A stretch of DNA of 64,000 nt, taken from assembly GCA_903850545.1 (NCBI GenBank), contig CAINLW010000009.1:2311-66310 (forward strand). The letters are read 5' to 3'. Of this stretch, positions 9,845 through 61,843 are shown piece by piece; the first letter of the stretch is position 1, and each line of letters opens with the position of its first letter. Position numbers and translations under genes: made by a program. The notes under the pieces are model-generated. The model did not search any database and was not told the DNA's origin. It saw only the letters and a list, made by a program, of their open reading frames with translations. This stretch comes from an uncultured bacterium. Its GTDB lineage: Bacteria; Patescibacteriota; Minisyncoccia; Phycocordibacterales; GWA1-40-21.

Positions 9845-10201
9845 CTATTTTTTATATTCTTTAACTTTTGCTTTTAATAATTTCACAGCGGAGTCATTTT
9901 TAAGTTTATTGCTTTCTAATAATCCATTGGCCAATCCTAAATAGTAATCTCTCATGTTATATTCATTTCCTTCAGCGGTTTTAACAACACTAGAATTATT
10001 AATATTCATAATGAGAAAAAGAACAGTTTCCATATCACTTTGATTTTCAGAGAGTTTTTTAAGCTCAATCCGTCTAATTTTTATTTCTTCTGATTCAGGG
10101 TTACTGCTATCTAAATTTGAAATGTTGTTTTCTGACATACAGTAAGTATAGCATGATTTAAATATATTTTGTGGATAATAAACTACCTCGGTGTAGAGCA
10201 C
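9845..10201 (-). CDS. Hypothetical protein
   Basis: 118-aa ORF. No recognisable motif. Confidence 0.35.
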   Translation of the reverse strand: MLYTEVVYYPQNIFKSCYTYCMSENNISNLDSSNPESEEIKIRRIELKKLSENQSDMETVLFLIMNINNSSVVKTAEGNEYNMRDYYLGLANGLLESNKLKNDSAVKLLKAKVKEYKK

Positions 10202-10336
10202 ACGAGGTATTCGTCATAATACTTCTGTCTTTGCGAGCGAAGCGTGGCAATCCAGGTTTGTACTGTATGTAGTTCTGGATTGCTTCGCTTCGCTCGCAAA
10301 GACGAAATACAAAACATTAACCGATGCAGAGCATCG
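10195..10336. repeat. Dispersed hairpin repeat, copy A
   Basis: agagcacacgaggtatt..gtctttgcgagcgaagcgtggcaatccag (10227-10255) / ctggattgcttcgcttcgctcgcaaagac (10275-10303)..accgatgcagagcatcg. A second near-identical copy sits at 42810-42950. Confidence 0.7.
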
Positions 10337-10372
10337 AGTAATATTAGGATTTAATCTACAAGATGTCTTTAC

Positions 10373-20302: not shown

Positions 20303-20350
20303 TAAAAAAAGTAGCCGCTTCTATTTGTGTAAACAAATAGAAGCGGCTAC
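20303..20350 (-). terminator. Rho-independent terminator (perfect 18-bp stem) after repeat-protein gene A
   Basis: gtagccgcttctatttgt-gtaa-acaaatagaagcggctac preceded on the plus strand by A7. Confidence 0.7.
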
Positions 20351-20365
20351 AATGTTTGTAGATAG

Positions 20366-21181
20366 TTATTTTTCCTCCTTATTATTAATTATTTGGGCCA
20401 TCCTCCTAATGGCATCGCAAGACTCTTGAGAATGATGTTCTGTTTTCTTGAAAACAAATAAACAATCTTTGACGTTTTCAGTAGTGATCAAAGCCTTTTT
20501 AATAGCACTGGACTTAACGATACTTTCATCCGGAGAATCTTTCCACACTTTCATGCATTCCTTGAATGTCGTGGCGACTTCAAGTCTAGACTCGAGTATT
20601 TCGTTTATTTTATGAAGGGCTTTCGCTTGAACAGCGTCACTATATGAATCCCGTAGAACTTCCATGTAATCCCCAAATGTTAAAGCAGTTTCTAGCTTTA
20701 CCTCAAGAAGTTTTTCAATTTTCTCTGACACTTTTAGTTCAATGCAGTTACATATTTGCCGATCATCATCACGATCAATAATCTTTTCACATTCTTTAAT
20801 GGTCGTTGCAAATGTTACAGCTTTTTCCAACAACGCTTTCTGGAAAATACTAACATCACAATCATCAAAGTCCGTGTCGCCATCATCATCACAAAAAATT
20901 AACATATCATAAATCTTCATACACCCCCTGAATGTCGTGGCGTCTTCAACCTCCTTTTTAATAAGCTCCTCAATCTTTTCCTGCGCTTTTTCATAGATAT
21001 TCCTATCAGCAATATCACAATACTTAATTTCCCGACATTCGTTAAGTGTCTTGGCATTTTCGAGTCTCAAGTAAAGATCTGCATGTTTTTTTTCAATGTT
21101 TCCCAATGCCGACTCCGCAAAATATGTTCCGCCGAGGCCTAGAATACTCGCGATTTTTTCCACCAATATTTTTCTGTCCAT
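20366..21181 (-). CDS. Repeat protein, paralog A (~45-aa alpha-helical repeats with A-T-T-F-x-E/G-C-x-K-[IV]-[WY] cores)
   Basis: Internal repeats DATTFRGCMKIYD / ALTFGDYMEVLRDSYSD / VATTFKECMKVWKDSPDE. AAGGAG Shine-Dalgarno 8 nt before ATG(21181). C-terminal CDAIRRMAQIINNKEEK parallels the paralog. Confidence 0.55.
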   Translation of the reverse strand: MDRKILVEKIASILGLGGTYFAESALGNIEKKHADLYLRLENAKTLNECREIKYCDIADRNIYEKAQEKIEELIKKEVEDATTFRGCMKIYDMLIFCDDDGDTDFDDCDVSIFQKALLEKAVTFATTIKECEKIIDRDDDRQICNCIELKVSEKIEKLLEVKLETALTFGDYMEVLRDSYSDAVQAKALHKINEILESRLEVATTFKECMKVWKDSPDESIVKSSAIKKALITTENVKDCLFVFKKTEHHSQESCDAIRRMAQIINNKEEK

Positions 21182-21261
21182 ATACTCGTCTCCTTTAACT
21201 ACAGTTTTTTTAAAGAACTATTTGTTCCAATCAATAATTAAGCATAATCTTTTGAATAAAT

Positions 21262-21288
21262 AAAAAAAGCGAGGATGCCCTCGGTAAA
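21262..21288 (-). promoter_or_regulatory. 27-nt element aaaaaagcgaggatgccctcggtaaaa, copy 1 (weak terminator-like hairpin or shared regulatory site)
   Basis: An identical copy lies at 22335-22361. Each sits ~75-80 nt upstream of a repeat-protein start codon. Confidence 0.4.
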
Positions 21289-21368
21289 ATAGATAATAAA
21301 AATGTCGCACTTGGGATAAAACCAAATGCGACATAAGATCACGTATAACAAATATTCTGCAGAATGAA

Positions 21369-22259
21369 TTATTTTACCTCCTTTCTTTCTATAATCCTTG
21401 CCATCTTTCTGATGACACGACACATTTGTGAACCCCCATCTATAAGTCCATAATTCTTATCCATAAGAATATCTGAGCATTCCTTTGCAGTTCTGGCGAC
21501 ATCAATGGCTCTGTTAGCAATCTTTTTTTGAAGCCATGTGGAATTACTCCCTTCGTCTAAGTCGAGGAGCATATCGTAAAGTTCTTTCATTGAGGCCTTC
21601 AGTAATGCTTTTTTCAAAGACTCACGCTCTATGTAGTCACAATAATCGGGGGAATCTTCATATATCTCCCAGTATTCCTCAGTACTGGTAGCCACCTTAA
21701 GTCTCTGCATGAGAAGTTTTTTTACTTTTTTTCGTGCCTTAAGCTTAATGCGAGGGTCAATACAACCACTAGAAACATCCTCACATTCCCCGACAGTTTT
21801 GGCTGTCTTTAGCTCTCTTCGCATAAGTTTATCCACCATTTCTTTAGCTTTTTGTTTGGTTTTGGTGTTAGCTAAAGGATGATCGCTGATCTCAGAATAC
21901 TCAGAATATCCGAACCAGTCGCCACGACCCTCTTTTGCAATTGTAACAAGTTTTAATTGAAGAAGTTCGTTGAGCTTTTTTCGTGCCATCCTTTTAATGT
22001 CAGTACCTTGGGAATTATAAAGACACTCGCATTCTTTAATTGTTTTTGTGGTCAATATAATTTTATCCAAGATTTTTTGTCTGATATCGCTACCTTTTGG
22101 AGAATATATGTAAACCTTATAGCAATCTCTGGGTGTCGTGGCACATTCGAGTCTCTCTTCTAGTTCGGTAATTGACATCAACCCTAGAGTAAACCTCACG
22201 CTACAAGAACTATTTTCACCGAGAATCTTGACGATTTTTGCCGACGTATCAGTATTCAT
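21369..22259 (-). CDS. Repeat protein, paralog B
   Basis: Start moved to MNTDTSAK (GGAGG Shine-Dalgarno 7 nt upstream; the listed ORF begins 20 codons earlier). Repeats CATTPRDCYKVYIYSPKGSD / VATSTEEYWEIYEDSPDY / VARTAKECSDIL. C-terminal CRVIRKMARIIERKEVK. Confidence 0.55.
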   Translation of the reverse strand: MNTDTSAKIVKILGENSSCSVRFTLGLMSITELEERLECATTPRDCYKVYIYSPKGSDIRQKILDKIILTTKTIKECECLYNSQGTDIKRMARKKLNELLQLKLVTIAKEGRGDWFGYSEYSEISDHPLANTKTKQKAKEMVDKLMRRELKTAKTVGECEDVSSGCIDPRIKLKARKKVKKLLMQRLKVATSTEEYWEIYEDSPDYCDYIERESLKKALLKASMKELYDMLLDLDEGSNSTWLQKKIANRAIDVARTAKECSDILMDKNYGLIDGGSQMCRVIRKMARIIERKEVK

Positions 22260-22334
22260 TTCATTATCCTCCGTTTTAATTTTAAAGACCAATATTTTCT
22301 CCATTCCATGAATAATCATAGTCGTTCTATAAAA

Positions 22335-22361
22335 TTAAAAAAGCGAGGATGCCCTCGGTAA
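22335..22361 (-). promoter_or_regulatory. 27-nt element aaaaaagcgaggatgccctcggtaaaa, copy 2
   Basis: Identical to 21262-21288. Confidence 0.4.
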
Positions 22362-22392
22362 AAATTTTAAAGCTTAATTTTTTTAAACTTAA

Positions 22393-23103
22393 CTAAATGT
22401 CGCTTTGAATATCCTCCCTGAAAAAATATTGAACAGACTTATTTGTTTTCTTTTTAAGATCCTTCAAAACAATTTTTATGCTTTTAATTGAATCAAATTT
22501 AGATGATTCGTTTTTAATTGCAATATTTATTGGCACCCACATATTATGTCCAAAATCTGTATCTTCTATTAATTTTCCTGAATATTTATTCGCGAAGGCA
22601 ATGACAAACAGGACGTCAGAGAAAAGTTCTCCAGATTTATACATAATTCTTCTTTCACATCCAAGAATTTTGAACTTCGCATCAAGTCCAGTTTCTTGCC
22701 TTAATTTTCTGCTAGCAGCATCTTCAAATAATTCTCCTTTAAGTACTACGCCACCCATGACCCCGACTTTTCCATATGAAGGATTAGATTTTCTAATTTG
22801 ATTTAATATTTCTAATTTTCCACCTACAGTTCTTGAAACAATAGTGATAACTTTAACACCAAACAAAGCATCCTCCAATTTGTTGCTTGTGTGGGGATCA
22901 GCTACATATTTCAAACCTTGAGCTGATAGATAGTATTTTGAGTTTTCTTTGGTCAATAACCCCTTTTTTACCAAATGCTGTAAATGATAATTAAATAAGT
23001 CGTTTGGCGTTCCCTGAGGATGCAAATCTGCGTATCTTAAAACATCAGCATTCTTAAGCTTGGAAATAATATAATCTTGGATTGGTGAAAGTTTAGATGT
23101 CAT
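22393..23103 (-). CDS. Winged-helix DNA-binding domain fused to a degenerate Nudix domain (NrtR-like regulator candidate)
   Basis: N-terminal helix-turn-helix-like region. Nudix-box remnant GGVVLKGELFEDAASRKLRQETGLD, in which the REUxEE glutamates are replaced (RKLRQE). Confidence 0.5.
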   Translation of the reverse strand: MTSKLSPIQDYIISKLKNADVLRYADLHPQGTPNDLFNYHLQHLVKKGLLTKENSKYYLSAQGLKYVADPHTSNKLEDALFGVKVITIVSRTVGGKLEILNQIRKSNPSYGKVGVMGGVVLKGELFEDAASRKLRQETGLDAKFKILGCERRIMYKSGELFSDVLFVIAFANKYSGKLIEDTDFGHNMWVPINIAIKNESSKFDSIKSIKIVLKDLKKKTNKSVQYFFREDIQSDI

Positions 23104-23253
23104 GTATTTAAAGAATATACTTTATTTTGAGGAAAATGACAAAGAGTCTGTAGCGTTCTTATTTAATCAAGGTCTGTTTTTAAAGTTACTATTTTGTTTA
23201 TAATTTCTATTAACTGCTTGCTCCACCACAATATTTCATGATACCGTATTAAT

Positions 23254-23922
23254 ATGACAGTGTATGATAAACCACAACCGAAATCAGATGCTCTTGATCA
23301 TATTCGTATAGCAGTAGCCTTGATTCCTACAGAGCCTCTTTTTTCTAATATTATTGAGGCCAGTCAAGCTATAACTCGCCAATTTCAGAATTTTAACATT
23401 ATTGATAAAAATGTTTTTCCTCCTCATGCGTGCCTACATATTTGCACCATATCCAAAGACAAATTGCCACATTTCCTAAAAATAATTAATCAATTGTCCA
23501 ATACAACTTTCCCAATTTTTGATCCATCTATACTAATCAAGGGATCAACGGGCTACATCTCTTTTCAATTAAATATTTCCCCATTGATTCGTTCACTTCA
23601 CGAGAGTGTGTTATCAGCCGCTTTGACTGTTCGGGGAGATGACTATCAGGAAGACCCCGCTCGTTTAGCTCGCCTTTCGGTAGCTGACAGATTGAGCTTT
23701 CAGAAATATGGCAATCGTTTTATCTTCGACAAGTTCAATTTACACATATCCATTGCAAAGGTTGCGCAAGAACATCAAGATGAGGCTTTTGAAATCGCCA
23801 AAACGATCTTAAGCACACCTAAGGCAACGCCCGCAGCTGCTATTCAAGTTTGCGACATCGGAATGCGGAGCGAAAAATGGATCGTTTTATATAGTAAGAA
23901 AATGCAGGGAAAACGTCATTAA
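23254..23922 (+). CDS. 2H-phosphoesterase-like (LigT-like) protein, tentative
   Basis: Two H-x-[ST/C]-x-like motifs about 100 aa apart (PHACLHICTI and NLHISIAKV). GC content above the local average. Confidence 0.3.
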   Translation: MTVYDKPQPKSDALDHIRIAVALIPTEPLFSNIIEASQAITRQFQNFNIIDKNVFPPHACLHICTISKDKLPHFLKIINQLSNTTFPIFDPSILIKGSTGYISFQLNISPLIRSLHESVLSAALTVRGDDYQEDPARLARLSVADRLSFQKYGNRFIFDKFNLHISIAKVAQEHQDEAFEIAKTILSTPKATPAAAIQVCDIGMRSEKWIVLYSKKMQGKRH

Positions 23923-25238
23923 TTTAAATATATAGTTTTATCTTTCAAACTTATTTTACTTTTTAAACATCCCAGTAGTTCTCTCTTTTCTATATCTTTT
24001 CCTTCTCTAAGAATATATTTCGCATAATTTTTAATATCTATATCGGCTATTAGTATTTTTTCATTATTTCCGAGTATCATGTGATTAAATTTTTTGATTT
24101 CTTCAACTTTCGCTTTTATCTTCTCTTTTATTCCAATTTCATCTATATCAATTTTTTCAATTAGGGTTTCAAATTGTTTTATTAGATCTATTTCGTTTAT
24201 ATAACCTCCTTTGCAATTCCTGTCTCTTACCCTGGTACAGCTATAATAGACATGCCTGTGAATATTGCCGTTTTTTTGTTTTTTAAACTTTTCATCTGCT
24301 GTAATTCCAGATCCACAAAGTCCACAAGTCATTAATTTGGTAAAAGCAAATTCCTTACTTTCTGATTTAATAATCTGACTTTTTACTTGATTTTGTACTT
24401 GATCAAACAGTTCTTTGGTAATAAGTGGTTCATGTTTACCCGTATAGAAATTTCCACTTTTTAGTGGATATTCGAAAACTCCATAATAATACGGGTTTCC
24501 TAAAAGTTGATATATATTTCCGAAACTTAATCCTTTGTTACTTTTTACACTTTTGAAATTAATCTCAAACTTCAACCAATTATAGATTTTGTGACCACTC
24601 CATTTCTCATACGCCACCTTTTCAAACATTTTCTTGATTACCGGAGCTCGTTGATGATCAATTACTACGTATCCTTTTCTATCAACCCTTTTTTCGTTCA
24701 AATATCCTACTGGTGGAGGTCCTGGTCTTAATCCCATTTCACATTTAGTTCTTAACCCACGTTTTACATTTACTGATTTATTATCATTTTCTAATTTTGC
24801 TTGAGAACATAAAATCATTAATAAGAACTTTTCGTTTGGTGAATTTATAAATGATTGTCCATAAGTTCTTATTTGTAAAAGTAGTTTCTGATCCATTAAA
24901 TCAACAAGTGATCCAAGATCGCCAGCGTTTCTAGAAAGCCTATCTGGTGCCCAAGTAAGTATTCCGTTAAATCTTTCTTTTCTTATATCTTCAAGTATTT
25001 CTTTAAATATGGGTCTTTGTCCTGAATCTTTAGCTGAATGAGACTCTCTCCTTATATCAATAATCTCAAGTCCTTCTTTTTCAGCCAGTTCAAGCATTTC
25101 TTTTACTTGGGATTCTATAGATAAGATTTGGCGCTCCTCAGATTCTGTACTTTTTCTAGCATATAAACAATATTTAATCTTTGCGGTTGGTATTACAACC
25201 CTTGTACCAATCAAAGCGTTTGTCGCCTGTATTTCCAT
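23919..25238 (-). CDS. Large serine recombinase (resolvase/invertase catalytic domain + recombinase domain + Zn-ribbon)
   Basis: YCLYARKSTESEERQ..SIESQ catalytic-serine region. C-terminal Cys pairs (CGLCGS..CTRVRDRNCKGG). Confidence 0.8.
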   Translation of the reverse strand: MEIQATNALIGTRVVIPTAKIKYCLYARKSTESEERQILSIESQVKEMLELAEKEGLEIIDIRRESHSAKDSGQRPIFKEILEDIRKERFNGILTWAPDRLSRNAGDLGSLVDLMDQKLLLQIRTYGQSFINSPNEKFLLMILCSQAKLENDNKSVNVKRGLRTKCEMGLRPGPPPVGYLNEKRVDRKGYVVIDHQRAPVIKKMFEKVAYEKWSGHKIYNWLKFEINFKSVKSNKGLSFGNIYQLLGNPYYYGVFEYPLKSGNFYTGKHEPLITKELFDQVQNQVKSQIIKSESKEFAFTKLMTCGLCGSGITADEKFKKQKNGNIHRHVYYSCTRVRDRNCKGGYINEIDLIKQFETLIEKIDIDEIGIKEKIKAKVEEIKKFNHMILGNNEKILIADIDIKNYAKYILREGKDIEKRELLGCLKSKISLKDKTIYLN

Positions 25239-25424
25239 GTATTAATGGTGTCAGAGATAGTGTCTTTTGCTAAGCGATAGCTTGTTGGCAACTTTTCTTA
25301 GCAGAATAACTAATTAGCGATATGATCAAGGTAGATTAATAATTTAAAAAGAGTTATTATGTGTAGGACAACTAAATAAGAAGTAGCCTAAACCAGTAGT
25401 AATACTGGCATGGTGAAAGTAAGT

Positions 25425-25510
25425 CCGTTGAAGATAAAAAACCCATCATGTGGGATTTGTCTTCAACGGCCGTATCTGGAAACAGGTATGGAGGGTTCAA
25501 ACCCTCACTC
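25425..25510 (+). other. Structured region upstream of the recombinase: a 10-bp perfect inverted repeat plus a tRNA T-arm-like hairpin; candidate attachment site
   Basis: ccgttgaaga..tcttcaacgg (25425-25469). gaggg-TTCAAAC-ccctc (25491-25506) fits the TPsiC arm consensus, but no complete tRNA could be folded. Confidence 0.3.
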
Positions 25511-42711: not shown

Positions 42712-42809
42712 TAATTGATAAAATTAAAATAAATGTTCTAGTATGAAATATAACGTATGAAATGATGTAGATCAACAAAATCTGCAATTATTATTAAATA
42801 CTTCAATAC

Positions 42810-42950
42810 AGAGCACACGAGGTATTAGCTATTATTATTTCTGTCTTTGCGAGCAAAGCGAAGCAATCCAGAATTACATACAATACAAACCTGGATTGCT
42901 TCGTGCCTCGCAAAGACAATACATAGAAGGTGGACCGATGCAGAGCATCG
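42810..42950. repeat. Dispersed hairpin repeat, copy B
   Basis: agagcacacgaggtatt..gtctttgcgagcaaagcgaagcaatccag (42843-42871) / ctggattgcttcgtgcctcgcaaagac (42891-42917)..accgatgcagagcatcg. Same orientation as copy A. The loop sequence differs. Confidence 0.7.
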
Positions 42951-42962
42951 GGGAATATCTAA

Positions 42963-55278: not shown

Positions 55279-57054
55279 ATGTCCTCCGTAGATCAAATAA
55301 AAGAAAGATTAAATATTGAAGGTGTTGTTGGCTCCTACATCAAACTTGAGAAAGCCGGCAACAGCTTAAAAGCAAGGTGTCCTTTTCACAATGAAAAAAC
55401 GCCATCTTTCTTCGTATCTCCAGAGAGAGGAAGTTATTATTGTTTTGGGTGCGGTGCAAAAGGGGATATTTTTACTTTTGTTCAAGAATTTGAAGGTATT
55501 GATTTTCTTGGATCATTAAAAATTCTTGCAGATAAGGCAGGTATAACTCTTGAGAAATTTACTTCAAAAACTACTGACAAAAAAGAAAGATTATATCAAC
55601 TTTTGGAAACTGCGACTTTGTTTATGCAGAAAAACCTTGAAGCAGAAGATATTCCTTTAAGTTATTTGAAAAATAGAGGTCTCAACAACGAAACCATTAA
55701 AAATTGGAAAATAGGTTATGTCCGCGATGAATGGAGATCTATTTCTGATCATTTAAAATCAAAAGGGTTTATTGATGATGAAATAGAAAGAGCTGGAATA
55801 TCAAAAACTGAAGGAAAAAACACTTATGACAGATTTCGTGGACGAATAATGTTTCCTATTTTTGACTCTGCTGGACGTGTAATCGCATACTCTGGAAGAA
55901 TACTTCACGATGACGGAAAATCTGCAAAATATTTAAATTCGCCACAAACTGAGCTTTTTGATAAGTCAAAGGTTCTTTATGGATACGATAGAGCAAAACA
56001 ATCCATTAGAAAGTTTGATTTTTCAATTTTAGTTGAAGGACAAATGGATTTACTCATGGCACATCAAGCAGGTTTTACAAATGCTATTGCATCTTCTGGA
56101 ACCGCCCTCACAGTAGAACACTTGGCATTATTAAAAAGAATATCGAACAAAATAATAATGTCGTTTGATTCAGATTATGCGGGGGCAAAGGCAGCAGAAA
56201 GGGGATGGGCATTAGCACTTTCAAACGGAATGGATGTAAAAATCGCTGAAATACCAAAGGGATTTGATCCTGCCGACTTAATCCTTAAAGATAAAGAAAA
56301 ATTTAAAGATGTTATTAAAAATTCTACATTTTTAATAGATTTTCTTTTAAATAGAATTGAAGCGGAACATAAAGACCTGCCTGCGCAGGCAGGCAAAAAG
56401 AAATTGTGGCAAACAATAAAAAATAAGATTTTGCCATATGTTTACTTATTAGACGGAAATACGGAAAGAAGTAGATATGTAAAAAAAATATCCGATCTAA
56501 TAGACATAAAAGAAGACTTTATCTGGGATGATTTAAAAAAGGTCAAACTCGATGATGAATTTCAACCACAAAACACACAAGTCGAAAACAAAACTATAGA
56601 AAAAGAGATAAGTCAGGAAATATTAAAAAAAGGTTCGATAGAAAGAAGTTTGGCATCTATTTTGACTAAACAAGAGGGTCGGCAAACAGATACGACAAAT
56701 GTGCGAGAAAAAATAAAGAACATATTAAGTGATGAAAAATATTTAAAGTTTCAAGAAGAATACAAAAATAAAATAAATGAATTAGCTTTTGAAGCAGAGG
56801 GGTACTACGAAAATATTGACGACGATAAATTACAAAAAGAAACGGAATATTTGATTTTAAATCTACGCGAAGAATACTATAAAAAAGAACTGGAAAAGCT
56901 TTTAACAAACCTAAAACTAGCAGAAAAAAGTAAAATTGCAGAAATGATAGAGTCCATATCGCTAAGATTAAAACTACTGATGCAAAAATTAAGTGAGATT
57001 AAAAGCGAAAAAAATTCTTTTTATAAAAATAATCTCGATCAACCAAAAAAATGA
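55279..57054 (+). CDS. dnaG: DNA primase
   Basis: Zn-binding [33 protein letters not shown]. Confidence 0.85.
56374..56394. repeat. 21-nt palindromic insert gacctgcctgcgcaggcaggc, in-frame within dnaG (encodes DLPAQAG)
   Basis: Identical 21-mer at 60599-60619 in an unrelated gene. Core cctgcctgc|gcaggcagg is a perfect 18-nt palindrome. Confidence 0.85.
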
Positions 57055-60229: not shown

Positions 60230-61843
60230 ATGAAGCAGCTTACAAAAACAGATTTTATATCATACAAAGAGTGTCCAAATAATGTTTGGATAAAATGGCA
60301 TATGCCGGAAGAATATGCAAAATTTCCTGTTTCTGAATTTGAACAATCGCTTGGAGAAATGGGAAATGAGGTTGAAGAATTGGCGCGTGATATGTTTCCA
60401 AATGGCTATTTAATTGAAAAAAGAAGCGAGGGCGCACAGGAACTCACGATGAAGTTGATGAGCGAGCATACGCCCATCATTTATCAGGCAGTGTTTAGTA
60501 CTGACAAATATTTAGCTGCAACAGATGTTATACACTGGAATGAAAAAGCTAGTGCTTATGACCTTTATGAAATTAAAATGTCTTCTACAGAAGGCGAGGA
60601 CCTGCCTGCGCAGGCAGGCGAAATAACAGATGATAACACTCCGCCAAAAGTAAATAAAAAAAGAGAAACTCAATATGAGTATGACCTCGCATTTCAAACA
60701 AATGTCGCTAAACTTTGTGGTGTAAATTTTAATAAAAAATATCTTGTTCGACTAAATAAAAAATATGTAAGAAGTGGGGAATTAGATTTTTCTAAATTAT
60801 TCGAAATAACAGATAAAACTGAAGTATTAAATGACATTTTTCTTTCTGTGACATCAACAGAAATGAATTCGGCTTATGAATATCTTTCAAACACGAAACA
60901 ATCCATTAAAAGGTGTCCGTGTTATTACAAAGGACGTTCGTCACATTGCACAACTTTTAGTATCAGCAACCCTGACGTGCCCATATACAGTGTTCATGAT
61001 TTAAACAGAATTGGAAATAGTAAAAAATATTTAAGTGAGCTTTTAAATGAAGGTGTAATGGAAATAGATAAAGTTCCAGAAGACGATAGGCTAAAACCAA
61101 AACAAAAGAAAAGTGGAGAACTAAGCAAGCCTAAAAAATTAAACCAAGTCAGAGTTTATAAAACAAAAGAACCCATTGTCGATATAATTTCTATTAAAAA
61201 AGAACTGGATTCACTAAAATATCCTTTGTATTTTTTAGATTACGAGACCTCACCTCGAGCAATTCCTCTCTATAATGGTTATCGTCCGTACCAACATGTA
61301 GTTTTTCAATATTCATTGCATATTTTAAAAAACAAAGATGCTAAACTTGAACATAAAGAATGTTTGATACTTGATGGGGATCCTGCTGAAAGATTGGTTG
61401 CAAGTTTAAGAAATGCTATTGGAGAAACTGGAAGTGTTATTTCTTGGTATAAAAGTTTTGAAAATTCTCGTAACAAAGAATTGGCAAATTTAGTGCCAGC
61501 TCAATATGATTTTCTTTACAGTGTCATCAATCGCACATATGACCTAATGGACATCGTCGATAAGCAATACTTTGTTCATCATGGTTTCAAAGGAAGTTCA
61601 TCGATTAAAAAAATACAGCCGGTTATTGCTCCAGATTTTTCATACAAAGAACTTGATGTACACAATGGAACAGACGCGATAGAGGCTTATAGACAAATAT
61701 CTAGCGGTGAATTAGTTGGTAAAGATGCTGAAGAAAAAAGACTGGCAATGCTTAAATACTGCGAATACGATACTAAAATTATGTATATAATATGGAAATA
61801 TTTCACTGATTTGATTGAAAATGAGCTTTTGCCAGATAAATAG
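60230..61843 (+). CDS. Cas4/RecB-like PD-(D/E)xK nuclease-like N-terminal region with a Cys cluster, plus a C-terminal DUF2779-like region; tentative
   Basis: N-terminal YKECP. DVIH..YDLYEIK (D..ExK). Cys cluster CPCYYKGRSSHC. C-terminal YFLDYETS segment. Confidence 0.35.
   Translation: MKQLTKTDFISYKECPNNVWIKWHMPEEYAKFPVSEFEQSLGEMGNEVEELARDMFPNGYLIEKRSEGAQELTMKLMSEHTPIIYQAVFSTDKYLAATDVIHWNEKASAYDLYEIKMSSTEGEDLPAQAGEITDDNTPPKVNKKRETQYEYDLAFQTNVAKLCGVNFNKKYLVRLNKKYVRSGELDFSKLFEITDKTEVLNDIFLSVTSTEMNSAYEYLSNTKQSIKRCPCYYKGRSSHCTTFSISNPDVPIYSVHDLNRIGNSKKYLSELLNEGVMEIDKVPEDDRLKPKQKKSGELSKPKKLNQVRVYKTKEPIVDIISIKKELDSLKYPLYFLDYETSPRAIPLYNGYRPYQHVVFQYSLHILKNKDAKLEHKECLILDGDPAERLVASLRNAIGETGSVISWYKSFENSRNKELANLVPAQYDFLYSVINRTYDLMDIVDKQYFVHHGFKGSSSIKKIQPVIAPDFSYKELDVHNGTDAIEAYRQISSGELVGKDAEEKRLAMLKYCEYDTKIMYIIWKYFTDLIENELLPDK
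60599..60619. repeat. Second copy of the 21-nt palindromic insert (encodes DLPAQAG in-frame)
   Basis: gacctgcctgcgcaggcaggc, identical to 56374-56394. Confidence 0.85.

What the first reader, a model, noticed from the sequence alone, without database searches (positions are those of the whole stretch)
20366..22392. Tandem paralogous repeat proteins, each preceded ~75-80 nt upstream by an identical 27-mer
The two adjacent minus-strand genes encode alpha-helical repeat proteins of 271 and 296 aa. Their ~45-aa units are built around A-T-T-F-x-[EG]-C-x-K-[IV]-[WY]...S-P-D cores, and both end in the C-terminal tails C-x-x-I-R-[RK]-M-A-[QR]-I-I. The exact 27-mer aaaaaagcgaggatgccctcggtaaaa occurs at 21262-21288 and again at 22335-22361, at nearly the same distance upstream of each start codon. 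It contains a 5-bp hairpin cgagg/cctcg next to an A-run, so it could be a weak terminator or a shared operator. The pair sits next to a winged-helix/degenerate-Nudix regulator. The repeat-protein family itself is not one I recognise.
Basis: seen in the sequence. Interest (0 to 1): 0.55.

Follow-up and report, generated by a model that had tools for sequence, protein, structure and literature searches.

The report
Conserved CPR promoter-operator drives duplicated repeat-protein genes
The identical 27-mer before each of two tandem repeat-protein genes is not a generic terminator: it is the core of a promoter/operator conserved across Patescibacteria (CPR bacteria), almost always found right after a highly conserved winged-helix–Nudix gene that is probably its regulator.

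Summary
Two co-linear paralogs (271 and 296 aa, 29% identical) are each preceded by the exact 27-mer TTTTACCGAGGGCATCCTCGCTTTTTT (gene strand).

The 27-mer core, ACCGAGG-N4-CCTCGCT plus a T-tract, is conserved across Patescibacteria. It lies just downstream of 76 of 77 orthologs of the adjacent winged-helix–Nudix gene. A -10 box (TAnnnT) follows at a fixed 24-25 nt in 61 of 66 unique sites, and a start-site G follows 7 nt later. There is no -35 box.

Changes in the two arms are not compensated (paired cells 89.7%, the same as shuffled arms). Copies located elsewhere keep the -10 spacing but often lose the T-run. So this is a DNA operator/promoter centred near -43, not an RNA hairpin or a generic terminator.

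The neighbouring protein has an N-terminal wHTH and a degenerate Nudix domain whose closest solved relative is the NrtR-family regulator AraR. It is the likely binder; this is inferred, not shown.

The element usually drives a 2OG-Fe(II) oxygenase. Here it drives two copies of a rare, uncurated alpha-solenoid family ("ATT-EC" repeats, 53 relatives among 1.84 billion representatives). The biochemical function of these proteins is unknown.

The parts
22393..23103 (-). wHTH-Nudix gene (236 aa), the putative regulator. wHTH is at about residues 7-59, the recognition helix is PNDLFNYHLQHLVKKG, and the Nudix domain is at about 81-234 with a degenerate box (RKLRQETG).
   Evidence: Pfam NUDIX E=7.5e-8 and weak HTH_45/DUF7347. 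More than 650 homolog clusters at 60-70% identity, with Patescibacteria source names. Alignment A5. AF2 pLDDT 80.8. PDB profile best hit is the AraR Nudix domain, E=1.5e-6. Foldseek best hits are MutT/MTH1.
23114..23142 (-). Candidate canonical sigma-70 promoter of the wH-Nudix gene (TTGTCA-17-TATATT). It shows that this organism has promoters with a normal -35 box.
   Evidence: Promoter scan, 10/12 match. Sequence verified. This is a consensus match only.
22337..22363 (-). 27-mer copy 1 (TTTTACCGAGGGCATCCTCGCTTTTTT), 29 nt after the wH-Nudix stop codon. It contains the palindrome CGAGG-GCAT-CCTCG at 22344-22357.
   Evidence: Matches the phylum-wide consensus ttTACCGAGGac.tCCTCgCTTTTTT.
22315..22320 (-). 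Predicted -10 box of promoter PB (TATGAT), starting 24 nt after the stem. Predicted start site is the G at 22307.
   Evidence: TAnnnT at offset 24/25 in 16/18 and 61/66 sites. G 7 nt after the hexamer in 38/61 sites. Coordinates verified.
21369..22259 (-). Gene B, an ATT-EC repeat protein (296 aa, pI 9.0, 7 repeat units).
21302..21334 (-). Strong intrinsic-terminator-like hairpin (13-bp stem plus T-run) after gene B, 12 nt upstream of 27-mer copy 2.
   Evidence: The fold of 21200-21345 has z = -4.1.
21263..21289 (-). 27-mer copy 2, identical to copy 1. Palindrome at 21270-21283.
21241..21246 (-). Predicted -10 box of promoter PA (TATGCT), starting 24 nt after the stem. Predicted start site is near 21232.
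21206..21289 (-). 84-nt duplicated promoter/leader block upstream of A. Its partner is 22280-22363. Identity is 76% overall, 27/27 in the core and 65% in the remaining 57 nt.
   Evidence: (family D1).
22280..22363 (-). 84-nt duplicated promoter/leader block upstream of B.
   Evidence: (family D1).
20366..21181 (-). Gene A, an ATT-EC repeat protein (271 aa, pI 5.0, 6 repeat units). The AF2 model is an all-alpha hairpin solenoid.
20311..20350 (.). 18-bp-stem bidirectional terminator-like hairpin between gene A and the convergent 91-aa gene.

Best explanation
The 27-mer is the upstream core of a regulated promoter that is conserved across Patescibacteria.

Layout of the element: a near-palindrome A(C/G)CGAGG-N4-CCTCGCT is usually followed by a T-tract. 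A -10 box (TAtaCT) sits exactly 24-25 nt after the palindrome, and a purine (G) start site follows 7 nt later. No -35 hexamer is present. This puts the centre of the palindrome near -42 to -43, the position of a class-II activator site.

Likely regulator: the element almost always lies directly downstream of a highly conserved gene for a protein with an N-terminal winged helix and a catalytically degenerate C-terminal Nudix domain. The most likely mechanism is that a dimer of this protein binds the palindrome, with its Nudix domain acting as a small-molecule sensor (probably for a nucleotide derivative). It would then switch on the gene or genes downstream.

What is special in this window: in most genomes the target is a 2OG-Fe(II) oxygenase. 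In this organism the target position holds a gene of a rare alpha-helical repeat family. That gene was duplicated in tandem together with its promoter, and purifying selection on the operator has kept the 27-mer identical while the coding sequences drifted to 29% identity.

Shown versus inferred:
- Shown: conservation, linkage to the regulator gene, spacing to the -10, absence of pairing covariation, and the domain make-up of the protein.
- Inferred: that the wH-Nudix protein is the binder, that it activates rather than represses, the nature of the effector, and the transcription start.
- Unknown: the biochemical role of the repeat proteins. The best guess is that they are protein-binding scaffolds.
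For: 1. Occurrence in the window. The 27-mer occurs only twice in 64 kb, both times before the paralogs.

2. Distribution across genomes. A scan of 185,579 species genomes for TTACCGAGGNNNNCCTCGCTTTT gave 18 hits. Sixteen are in Patescibacteria-type MAGs, and 13 of those lie 3-61 nt after a wH-Nudix ortholog.

3. Unbiased sample. Eighty metagenome loci were chosen by the protein alone. The element follows the stop codon in 74/77 loci, and in 76/77 after two sites outside the first search range were added.

4. Fixed promoter geometry.
- TAnnnT sits at offset 24/25 in 16/18 sites and at offset 22-26 in 61/66 sites; the background rate is 2.1% per position.
- A G lies 7 nt after the hexamer in 38/61 sites and a C never does.
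- The -35 position reads CTTTTT, whereas the regulator's own promoter has TTGTCA-17-TATATT.

5. No selection for base pairing.
- Paired cells are 89.7% observed and 89.7% shuffled (277/500 shuffles reach the observed value). The covariation score is 0.017 against 0.018.
- There are 34 unpaired cells against 1 compensated change.

6. Secondary copies. Copies not located after the regulator gene keep the -10 spacing (18/23), but seven of those 18 lack the T-run.

7. The protein looks like a regulator.
- wHTH plus Nudix architecture.
- The Nudix box is degenerate across the whole family.
- The closest solved sequence relative is the effector domain of the NrtR-family regulator AraR.
- The recognition helix is nearly invariant, matching the invariant operator core. 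The only two Q-to-K variants coincide with two of the three AGTGAGG operators.

8. Which side the linkage is on. Upstream neighbours are not conserved and downstream genes vary, so the element tracks the regulator gene.

9. Selection on the upstream block in the window. It is 76% identical overall and 27/27 in the core. The CDS is 49% identical, 41% at third codon positions.
Against: - No binding, expression or transcription-start data exist. Everything rests on comparative sequence analysis.
- The conserved T-tract right after a GC-rich inverted repeat, at the 3' end of a gene, is also what a weak intrinsic terminator looks like. A dual role cannot be excluded.
- The flanks of the palindrome are not symmetric (T-rich on both sides), which is unusual for a purely dimeric operator.
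- Another transcription factor could bind the site.
- Activation versus repression rests only on the position of the site and the missing -35.
- Nothing here reveals the function of the repeat proteins. The nearest family member (P0008) has no such element upstream, so the link between the repeat family and this regulon is specific to this lineage.
- The literature search covered only open-access text and bioRxiv.
Confidence: 0.62

Rival explanations
1. The 27-mer is an intrinsic (Rho-independent) terminator. An RNA hairpin CGAGG/CCUCG plus a U-run ends the upstream transcript: the wH-Nudix mRNA at copy 1 and the gene B mRNA at copy 2. The identity of the two copies reflects duplication.
For: - The terminator scan flags both copies: 5-bp stem, 4 GC pairs, T-run.
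- Primary sites lie 2-50 nt after the wH-Nudix stop codon, and the T-tract is at least 80% conserved there.
Against: - The stem is weak: -6.8 kcal/mol, z = -1.7, and 18/200 shuffles fold as well.
- There is no covariation. The stem is broken in 27/66 sites, leaving 3-4 pairs.
- Copy 2 sits 12 nt after a far stronger terminator, so it is redundant there.
- Secondary sites often lack the T-run but keep the -10 spacing.
- Sequence-level conservation of the arms and flanks across phylum-level lineages is not expected for terminators.
- The fixed distance to a -10 box is unexplained by this model.
Confidence: 0.12
2. The palindrome is an operator, but the bound factor represses rather than activates, or the binder is a different transcription factor and the wH-Nudix gene is merely a conserved neighbour.
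For: - The best-studied Nudix-wHTH regulators (NrtR) are reported as regulators whose DNA binding is relieved by an effector (PMC2330246).
- A site at about -43 overlapping the -35 region could equally block RNA polymerase.
- No binding data exist.
Against: - The promoters lack any -35 hexamer, while the regulator's own promoter has one. That is typical of activator-dependent promoters.
- The element tracks the wH-Nudix gene, not any particular downstream or upstream gene.
- The recognition helix and the operator core are co-conserved, with a hint of co-variation.
Confidence: 0.2
3. The identical 27-mers are only a by-product of a recent duplication or gene conversion and have no function of their own.
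For: - The 27-mer is part of an 84-nt direct repeat.
- The variable loop (GCAT) is also identical in both copies.
Against: - The duplication is old: the CDS is 29% identical at the amino-acid level and 41% at third codon positions.
- The same core is conserved in 76/77 orthologous loci from distant lineages.
Confidence: 0.02
4. The element is a cis-regulatory RNA (leader, attenuator or riboswitch), a small RNA, or a mobile or recombination site such as an integron attC-like sequence flanking gene cassettes.
For: - Downstream genes vary between genomes, and some loci carry 2-3 tandem copies, each before a different small gene. This superficially resembles a cassette array.
- A serine recombinase gene lies 0.8 kb upstream in the window.
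Against: - The predicted start site is downstream of the palindrome, so the palindrome would not be in the leader.
- There is no covariation.
- No Rfam family matches in the window or in 20 loci.
- No recombinase is linked in other loci.
- The fixed -10 spacing points to a promoter.
Confidence: 0.04

Closest known systems
[quoted passage not shown]
   Same: - A Nudix-fold domain with a perturbed catalytic signature is fused to a winged-helix DNA-binding domain.
- Palindromic sites lie in the promoters of regulated genes next to the regulator gene.
- The best PDB sequence match of this family's Nudix domain is AraR 5bs6, E=1.5e-6.
- The expected logic is the same: the Nudix domain senses a metabolite and modulates DNA binding (PMC2330246; PMC4666351).
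   Different: - The domain order is reversed (wHTH at the N-terminus, Nudix at the C-terminus), whereas NrtR is defined by an N-terminal Nudix and a C-terminal wHTH.
- The operator differs: ACCGAGG-N4-CCTCGCT.
- The predicted targets are a 2OG-Fe(II) oxygenase, HD, HIT and CYTH enzymes, a methyltransferase and, here, repeat proteins, rather than NAD or sugar genes.
- The site position and the missing -35 suggest activation.
- The family appears restricted to Patescibacteria and is unusually conserved (60-70% identity).
Class II activator-dependent promoters (for example CRP/FNR sites centred at -41.5); comparison from general knowledge
   Same: A dimer-type palindrome is centred about 42-43 bp upstream of the inferred start. 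It replaces the -35 hexamer, and a good -10 is retained.
   Different: The putative activator is a wHTH-Nudix protein, not a CRP/FNR-fold protein. A conserved T-tract occupies the -35 region. None of this has been tested experimentally.
Intrinsic terminators
   Same: A GC-rich inverted repeat is followed by a T-run at the 3' end of a gene.
   Different: The sequence is conserved rather than the pairing. The T-run is dispensable at secondary sites. The distance to a -10 box is fixed.
TPR / Sel1-like / designed helical-repeat alpha-solenoids (for proteins A and B)
   Different: - No Pfam, NCBIfam, PHROG or PADLOC profile is matched, and there is no PDB sequence hit.
- The motifs are distinctive: LE.A.T.[ED]EC..[IV]Y..AP.GS.
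- The caps are conserved: N-terminal ..V..I..ILG....QI..AL and C-terminal S.EA..CI[RK].IA.[IL]L.

Membership tests
NrtR (Nudix-related transcriptional regulator) family | N-terminal Nudix domain fused to a characteristic C-terminal wHTH domain (stated as invariant in PMC2330246) | tested here: not met
   The order is reversed. The wHTH is at about residues 7-59 and the Nudix domain at about 81-234 (Pfam; AF2 secondary structure; definition).
NrtR (Nudix-related transcriptional regulator) family | Nudix effector domain homologous to those of NrtR proteins, often with a perturbed Nudix signature | tested here: met
   The profile of 15 orthologs hits the AraR (5bs6) Nudix domain at E=1.5e-6, the best PDB hit. 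The signature reads G-x5-E-x7-R-K-L-K-Q-E-T-G-L in most family members (RKLRQETG in the window protein).
NrtR (Nudix-related transcriptional regulator) family | Regulon of NAD-metabolism genes (or, for AraR, sugar-utilisation genes) with family-type operator motifs | tested here: not met
   The downstream genes are a 2OG-Fe(II) oxygenase (50/104), a YfbR-like HD protein, HIT, CYTH, a methyltransferase and unknown proteins. The operator is ACCGAGG-N4-CCTCGCT.
NrtR (Nudix-related transcriptional regulator) family | Effector-modulated (ADP-ribose or arabinose) binding to the operator | not testable with these tools
   Needs EMSA with candidate ligands.
Intrinsic (Rho-independent) terminator | Stable GC-rich RNA stem-loop immediately followed by a U-run | tested here: inconclusive
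   Both window copies fit a minimal pattern of a 5-bp stem plus T7. However, the free energy is only -6.8 kcal/mol and z = -1.7.
Intrinsic (Rho-independent) terminator | Pairing, rather than sequence, is maintained among orthologous sites | tested here: not met
   No excess pairing or covariation over shuffled arms. The stem is broken in 27/66 sites. The T-run is absent at many secondary sites.
Class II activator-dependent sigma-70 promoter | Activator site centred near -41.5 overlapping or replacing the -35 box, with a functional -10 | tested here: met
   The palindrome centre lies 30.5-31.5 nt upstream of the first base of TAnnnT in 61/66 sites, which places it at about -42.5 to -43.5. The -35 position reads CTTTTT. 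The positions are inferred from the -10 box and have not been mapped.
Class II activator-dependent sigma-70 promoter | Transcription depends on the activator, with a mapped start site | not testable with these tools
   Needs 5'-end mapping and in vitro transcription.
TPR / Sel1 / HEAT curated repeat families (proteins A and B) | Significant match to the family profile | tested here: not met
   Pfam on A, B and 10 relatives gave nothing above the curated cut-offs; the best hits were E of 0.002-0.1 to unrelated models. NCBIfam, PHROGs and PADLOC also gave nothing.
TPR / Sel1 / HEAT curated repeat families (proteins A and B) | Alpha-alpha hairpin solenoid fold | tested here: met
'ATT-EC' repeat family (defined here from the profile hits) | N-terminal cap (I..ILG....[IV]...L), at least 2 repeats with A.T..[ED][CYW]..[IV], and a C-terminal cap C/A-I-[RK]-x-[IM]-A-x-[IL]-[IL] | tested here: met
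   A and B carry all three features. The unit profile finds 53 further proteins at E of 1e-3 or better among 1.84 billion representatives.

The most novel reading that the evidence does not exclude
Patescibacteria share a previously undescribed, highly conserved transcription factor. It is a winged helix fused to a degenerate Nudix sensor, which is the reverse of the NrtR architecture. It activates -10-only promoters from an invariant palindrome centred near -43 and so controls a small, plastic regulon of nucleotide-handling enzymes. In this organism the regulon has captured and duplicated a gene of an uncharacterised alpha-solenoid family.
Probability: 0.55. Interest if true: 0.72.

Novelty: new variant of a known kind. 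Interest (0 to 1): 0.62.

Why it matters
- Regulation in CPR/Patescibacteria is poorly understood. These are a large, mostly uncultivated group with tiny genomes and few recognisable regulators.
- This work defines a concrete module: a regulator family at 60-70% identity across lineages, an 18-bp operator with fixed promoter geometry, and a predictable regulon (2OG oxygenase, HD, HIT and CYTH enzymes, a methyltransferase).
- The module can be tested directly by EMSA, by ligand screening of the Nudix domain, and by transcription-start mapping in cultivable Saccharibacteria.
- It could reveal which metabolite, plausibly a host-derived or damaged nucleotide, these symbionts monitor.
- It also gives a regulatory handle on an orphan repeat-protein family, and it corrects a start-codon annotation.
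- If instead the element proved to be only a terminator, the finding would be of minor interest.

Tried and rejected
- Curated families for A and B. I searched Pfam, NCBIfam, PHROGs, PADLOC and PDB sequences and found nothing significant.
- Whole-protein homology search with A. It found only itself among 5.8 billion proteins. The repeat-unit profile was needed to find relatives.
- Family alignment as a query. It was too divergent for the search for related loci. In the word-indexed search it returned only 4 proteins.
- Rfam. Nothing matches at the element, either in the window or in 20 related loci. "MDR-NUDIX" was not found in the paper library.
- A structured leader RNA. Folding the leaders gave inconsistent structures (z = +0.67 for A, -2.25 for B), so I rejected this.
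- Viral contigs. There was one chance match inside a high-GC coding region.
- Strain variation. Seven contigs of the same organism are identical across the locus, so there is no information on copy-number variation.
- Closest wH-Nudix relative (80% identity). It has a single unannotated 290-aa gene downstream, but no DNA or sequence was retrievable. I could not tell whether this gene is an ATT-EC gene or the oxygenase.
- Context of other ATT-EC members. The contigs for P0011, P0017 and P0030 are too short. P0008 lies among HEPN_AbiU2, Fic/RhuM and SocA_Panacea genes with no palindrome upstream.
- Autoregulatory site upstream of the regulator gene. No copy of the palindrome lies between the wH-Nudix gene and the divergent upstream gene in the window; this was not tallied for the other loci.
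- afdb50 fold library. It was unavailable.
Full report
**1. The observation**

Both genes are on the minus strand: A at 20366-21181 (271 aa) and B at 21369-22259 (296 aa). The ORF of B extends to an ATG at 22319 (316 aa, the version other pipelines annotate). However, a GGAGG Shine-Dalgarno precedes the ATG at 22259, just as AGGAG precedes the start of A, and the ATG at 22319 lies inside the predicted -10 box.

A and B are co-linear paralogs at 29% identity. They share an N-terminal KI..ILG motif and C-terminal tails CDAIRRMAQII / CRVIRKMARII. A seed HMM finds 6 repeat units in A and 7 in B. The units are 29-50 aa with a 37-position core, somewhat shorter than the roughly 45 aa reported.

The 27-mer occurs exactly twice, at 21263-21289 and 22337-22363. 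That is 1-2 nt from the reported coordinates, and no match occurred in 100 shuffles. It is the 5' end of an 84-nt direct repeat that is 76% identical. On the gene strand it reads TTTTAC-CGAGG-GCAT-CCTCG-CTTTTTT.

**2. The repeat proteins**

- Curated libraries. Neither protein matches Pfam, NCBIfam, PHROGs, PADLOC or any PDB sequence.
- Homologs. A whole-protein search with A found only itself among 5.8 billion proteins. The same organism recurs in a few metagenome series, with an identical locus. A profile of the 13 repeat units, searched exhaustively, found 53 further proteins among 1.84 billion representatives.
- Shared architecture. These relatives share an N-terminal cap (..V..I..ILG....QI..AL), a variable number of repeats (LE.A.T.[ED]EC..[IV]Y..AP.GS....KALEKAL.LA), and a C-terminal cap (S.EA..CI[RK].IA.[IL]L). 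Ten of them also lack any Pfam match.
- Origin. The nearest relative, P0008, comes from a Candidatus Zambryskibacteria (Parcubacteria) genome.
- Conclusion. This is a rare, uncurated alpha-solenoid family. I call it "ATT-EC" here.
- Charge. A is acidic (pI 5.0) and B is basic (pI 9.0).

**3. The 27-mer is part of a phylum-wide element tied to the neighbouring gene**

I scanned one genome for each of 185,579 species for TTACCGAGGNNNNCCTCGCTTTT, leaving the loop free. This gave 18 hits:
- 13 in named Patescibacteria lineages (Saccharibacteria, Paceibacterota/Parcubacteria, Taylorbacteria);
- 3 in unnamed MAGs;
- 2 in unrelated bacteria.

In 13 of the 16 Patescibacteria-type loci the motif lies 3-61 nt after a gene whose product ends ...DFGHNMWVPIDEAIKNES.EFDSIK...PFFFEE.IQSD. 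That is an ortholog of the window's wH-Nudix protein.

The wH-Nudix protein has more than 650 homolog clusters at 60-70% identity, and the source names are all of Patescibacteria type.

To remove selection bias, I fetched 80 metagenome loci using the protein alone. Of the 77 with a stop codon, 74 carry ACCGAGG-N4-CCTCGCT (4 substitutions or fewer) shortly after the stop, mostly within 2-50 nt. Two more sites lay just outside my first search range, bringing the total to 76/77.

Upstream neighbours of the gene are not conserved, and the downstream genes vary. The element therefore tracks the wH-Nudix gene itself.

**4. It is a promoter with fixed geometry**

- A TAnnnT hexamer starts 24 or 25 nt after the last stem base in 16/18 sites of the first set and in 61/66 unique sites of the unbiased set. 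The background rate is 2.1% per position.
- Anchored on that hexamer, the consensus is TAtaCT(T). A G lies 7 nt downstream in 38/61 sites and a C never does, which is a typical start site.
- The position where a -35 hexamer would sit reads CTTTTT.
- By contrast, the wH-Nudix gene's own upstream region has TTGTCA-17-TATATT. The organism therefore does use canonical -35 boxes elsewhere.
- The palindrome centre falls at about -42.5 to -43.5.

In the window:

| Promoter | -10 box | Coordinates | Inferred start |
|---|---|---|---|
| PB | TATGAT | 22320-22315 | G at 22307 |
| PA | TATGCT | 21246-21241 | near 21232 |

This gives leaders of about 50 nt.

**5. It is DNA, not an RNA hairpin**

- Pairing across the 66 unique sites. 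The five core pairs are all intact in only 39 sites. The outermost C-G pair is unpaired in 23 sites and compensated once. The G-C pair at position 4 is broken in 8 sites and never compensated.
- Formal test. The dedicated pair-counting tool gives 89.7% paired cells against 89.7% for shuffled arms (277/500 shuffles reach the observed value). The covariation score is 0.017 against 0.018. Each arm is therefore conserved as sequence.
- Stability. The hairpin is weak: -6.8 kcal/mol, and 18/200 shuffles fold as well.
- Redundancy. Copy 2 in the window sits 12 nt after a much stronger terminator.
- Secondary sites. Among 23 sites that do not follow a wH-Nudix gene, 18 keep the -10 at the fixed offset. 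Seven of those 18 lack the T-run and read CCTC[AG]CTAGAA instead.
- Known RNA families. No Rfam family matches the element.
- Remaining caveat. A secondary role as a weak terminator at primary sites remains possible, because the T-tract is best conserved there.

**6. The likely binder**

- Structure. The AF2 model of the neighbouring protein (pLDDT 80.8) shows a winged helix-turn-helix at residues 7-59 and a Nudix fold at 81-234.
- Nudix box. It reads G-x5-E-x7-RKLKQETGL across the family, with K and Q replacing two of the canonical glutamates.
- Solved relatives. The family profile's best sequence match in the PDB is the Nudix effector domain of Bacteroides AraR, an NrtR-family transcription factor (E=1.5e-6). 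By fold, the domain resembles MutT/MTH1.
- Recognition helix. The predicted helix PNDLFNYHLQxLVKKG is nearly invariant, as is the operator core. The only two proteins with Q-to-K in that helix are two of the three loci whose operator arm reads AGTGAGG. With n=2 this is only suggestive.
- Status. Binding is inferred, not shown.

**7. Targets**

Of 104 genes downstream of such sites, 50 belong to one 2OG-Fe(II) oxygenase family (PF03171, E=4e-10). The others are a YfbR-like HD 5'-deoxynucleotidase, HIT, CYTH, a SAM methyltransferase, and small unknown proteins. None is an ATT-EC protein.

The window contains no oxygenase or HD homolog. Twenty-two loci carry 2-3 sites. In L023/L046, for example, two sites lie 1548 nt apart before paralogous genes, which is the same pattern as in the window.

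The window's arrangement is therefore a lineage-specific variant. An ATT-EC gene occupies the regulated position and was duplicated together with its promoter.

The coding sequences have since diverged to 29% amino-acid identity, 49% nucleotide identity and 41% at third codon positions. The upstream block remains 76% identical, with 27/27 in the core. Twenty-three of the 27 bases coincide with positions that are conserved across the phylum, so purifying selection is enough to explain the identity.

**8. Comparison with known systems**

The closest described system is NrtR/AraR (PMC2330246, PMC4666351).
- Same: a Nudix sensor fused to a wHTH, and palindromic operators next to the regulator gene.
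- Different: NrtR is defined by an N-terminal Nudix and a C-terminal wHTH, whereas the order here is reversed. The operator and the regulon also differ. This family probably works like NrtR but is not a member of it.

Literature searches for Nudix together with Patescibacteria or Saccharibacteria regulators found no prior description in the library available.

**9. Verdict**

- The "shared operator" reading is supported by comparative evidence, and the "generic terminator" reading is not.
- The repeat family is uncurated and rare, and its function is unknown.
- I rate this as a new variant of a known kind (Nudix-type regulators with palindromic operators). Interest is moderate to high, because the module is conserved across a major, poorly understood bacterial radiation and can be tested directly.

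Noticed in passing
window 25385-25506 (+): A full-length LOOT RNA (Rfam RF03000, 85.6 bits against a gathering score of 46.4) lies between the serine recombinase gene (23919-25238, minus strand) and a membrane-protein gene.
   Followed up: no
window 10175-10344 and 42790-42958 (+): Two intergenic copies of a roughly 170-230-nt element, 79% identical. Each has three conserved hairpins: ACCTCG...AGAGCACA...CGAGGT; a long stem TCTGTCTTTGCGAGC.AAGCG..GCAATCCAG / CTGGATTGCTTCG...CTCGCAAAGAC; and CCGATGCAGAGCATCGG. There is no Rfam match. This is a candidate unannotated structured RNA.
   Followed up: partly
window 56374-56398 and 60599-60623: A near-identical palindromic 25-mer, GACCTGCCTGCGCAGGCAGGC[AG]AAA, occurs twice. 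It looks like a terminator (family D5).
   Followed up: no
window 22259-22319 (-): Gene B is annotated elsewhere as 316 aa starting at the ATG at 22319. That ATG lies inside the predicted -10 box (TATGAT, 22320-22315), upstream of the inferred start site. The start at 22259, preceded by a Shine-Dalgarno sequence, gives 296 aa.
   Followed up: yes
window 20366-21181 and 21369-22259: The two paralogs have opposite net charge: A has pI 5.0 and B has pI 9.0. Each has 10-11 cysteines, mostly at the conserved 'EC' repeat position. A heterodimer is conceivable but has not been tested.
   Followed up: no
L037 and L075 (wH-Nudix loci): The only two orthologs with Q-to-K in the predicted recognition helix (NYHLK) are two of the three loci whose operator arm is AGTGAGG instead of ACCGAGG. 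This is a possible protein-DNA co-variation, but n=2.
   Followed up: partly
L087, L089, L096, L104, L011 (secondary sites): A second class of the element lacks the T-tract (ACCGAGGAATTCCTCACTAGAA...) but keeps the -10 at +24/25. L089 has three sites in tandem.
   Followed up: partly
L026 (contig carrying P0008, Ca. Zambryskibacteria): The nearest ATT-EC relative sits among HEPN_AbiU2, Fic/RhuM, SocA_Panacea, ClpP and NYN-domain genes. This is a toxin-antitoxin or defence-island-like neighbourhood, and it has no wH-Nudix element.
   Followed up: partly
window 23254-23922 (+): The divergent 222-aa gene upstream of the wH-Nudix gene has weak similarity to DUF1045 and to a phosphonate-operon protein (a 2H-phosphoesterase-like protein?). 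It is not conserved next to wH-Nudix in other loci.
   Followed up: partly
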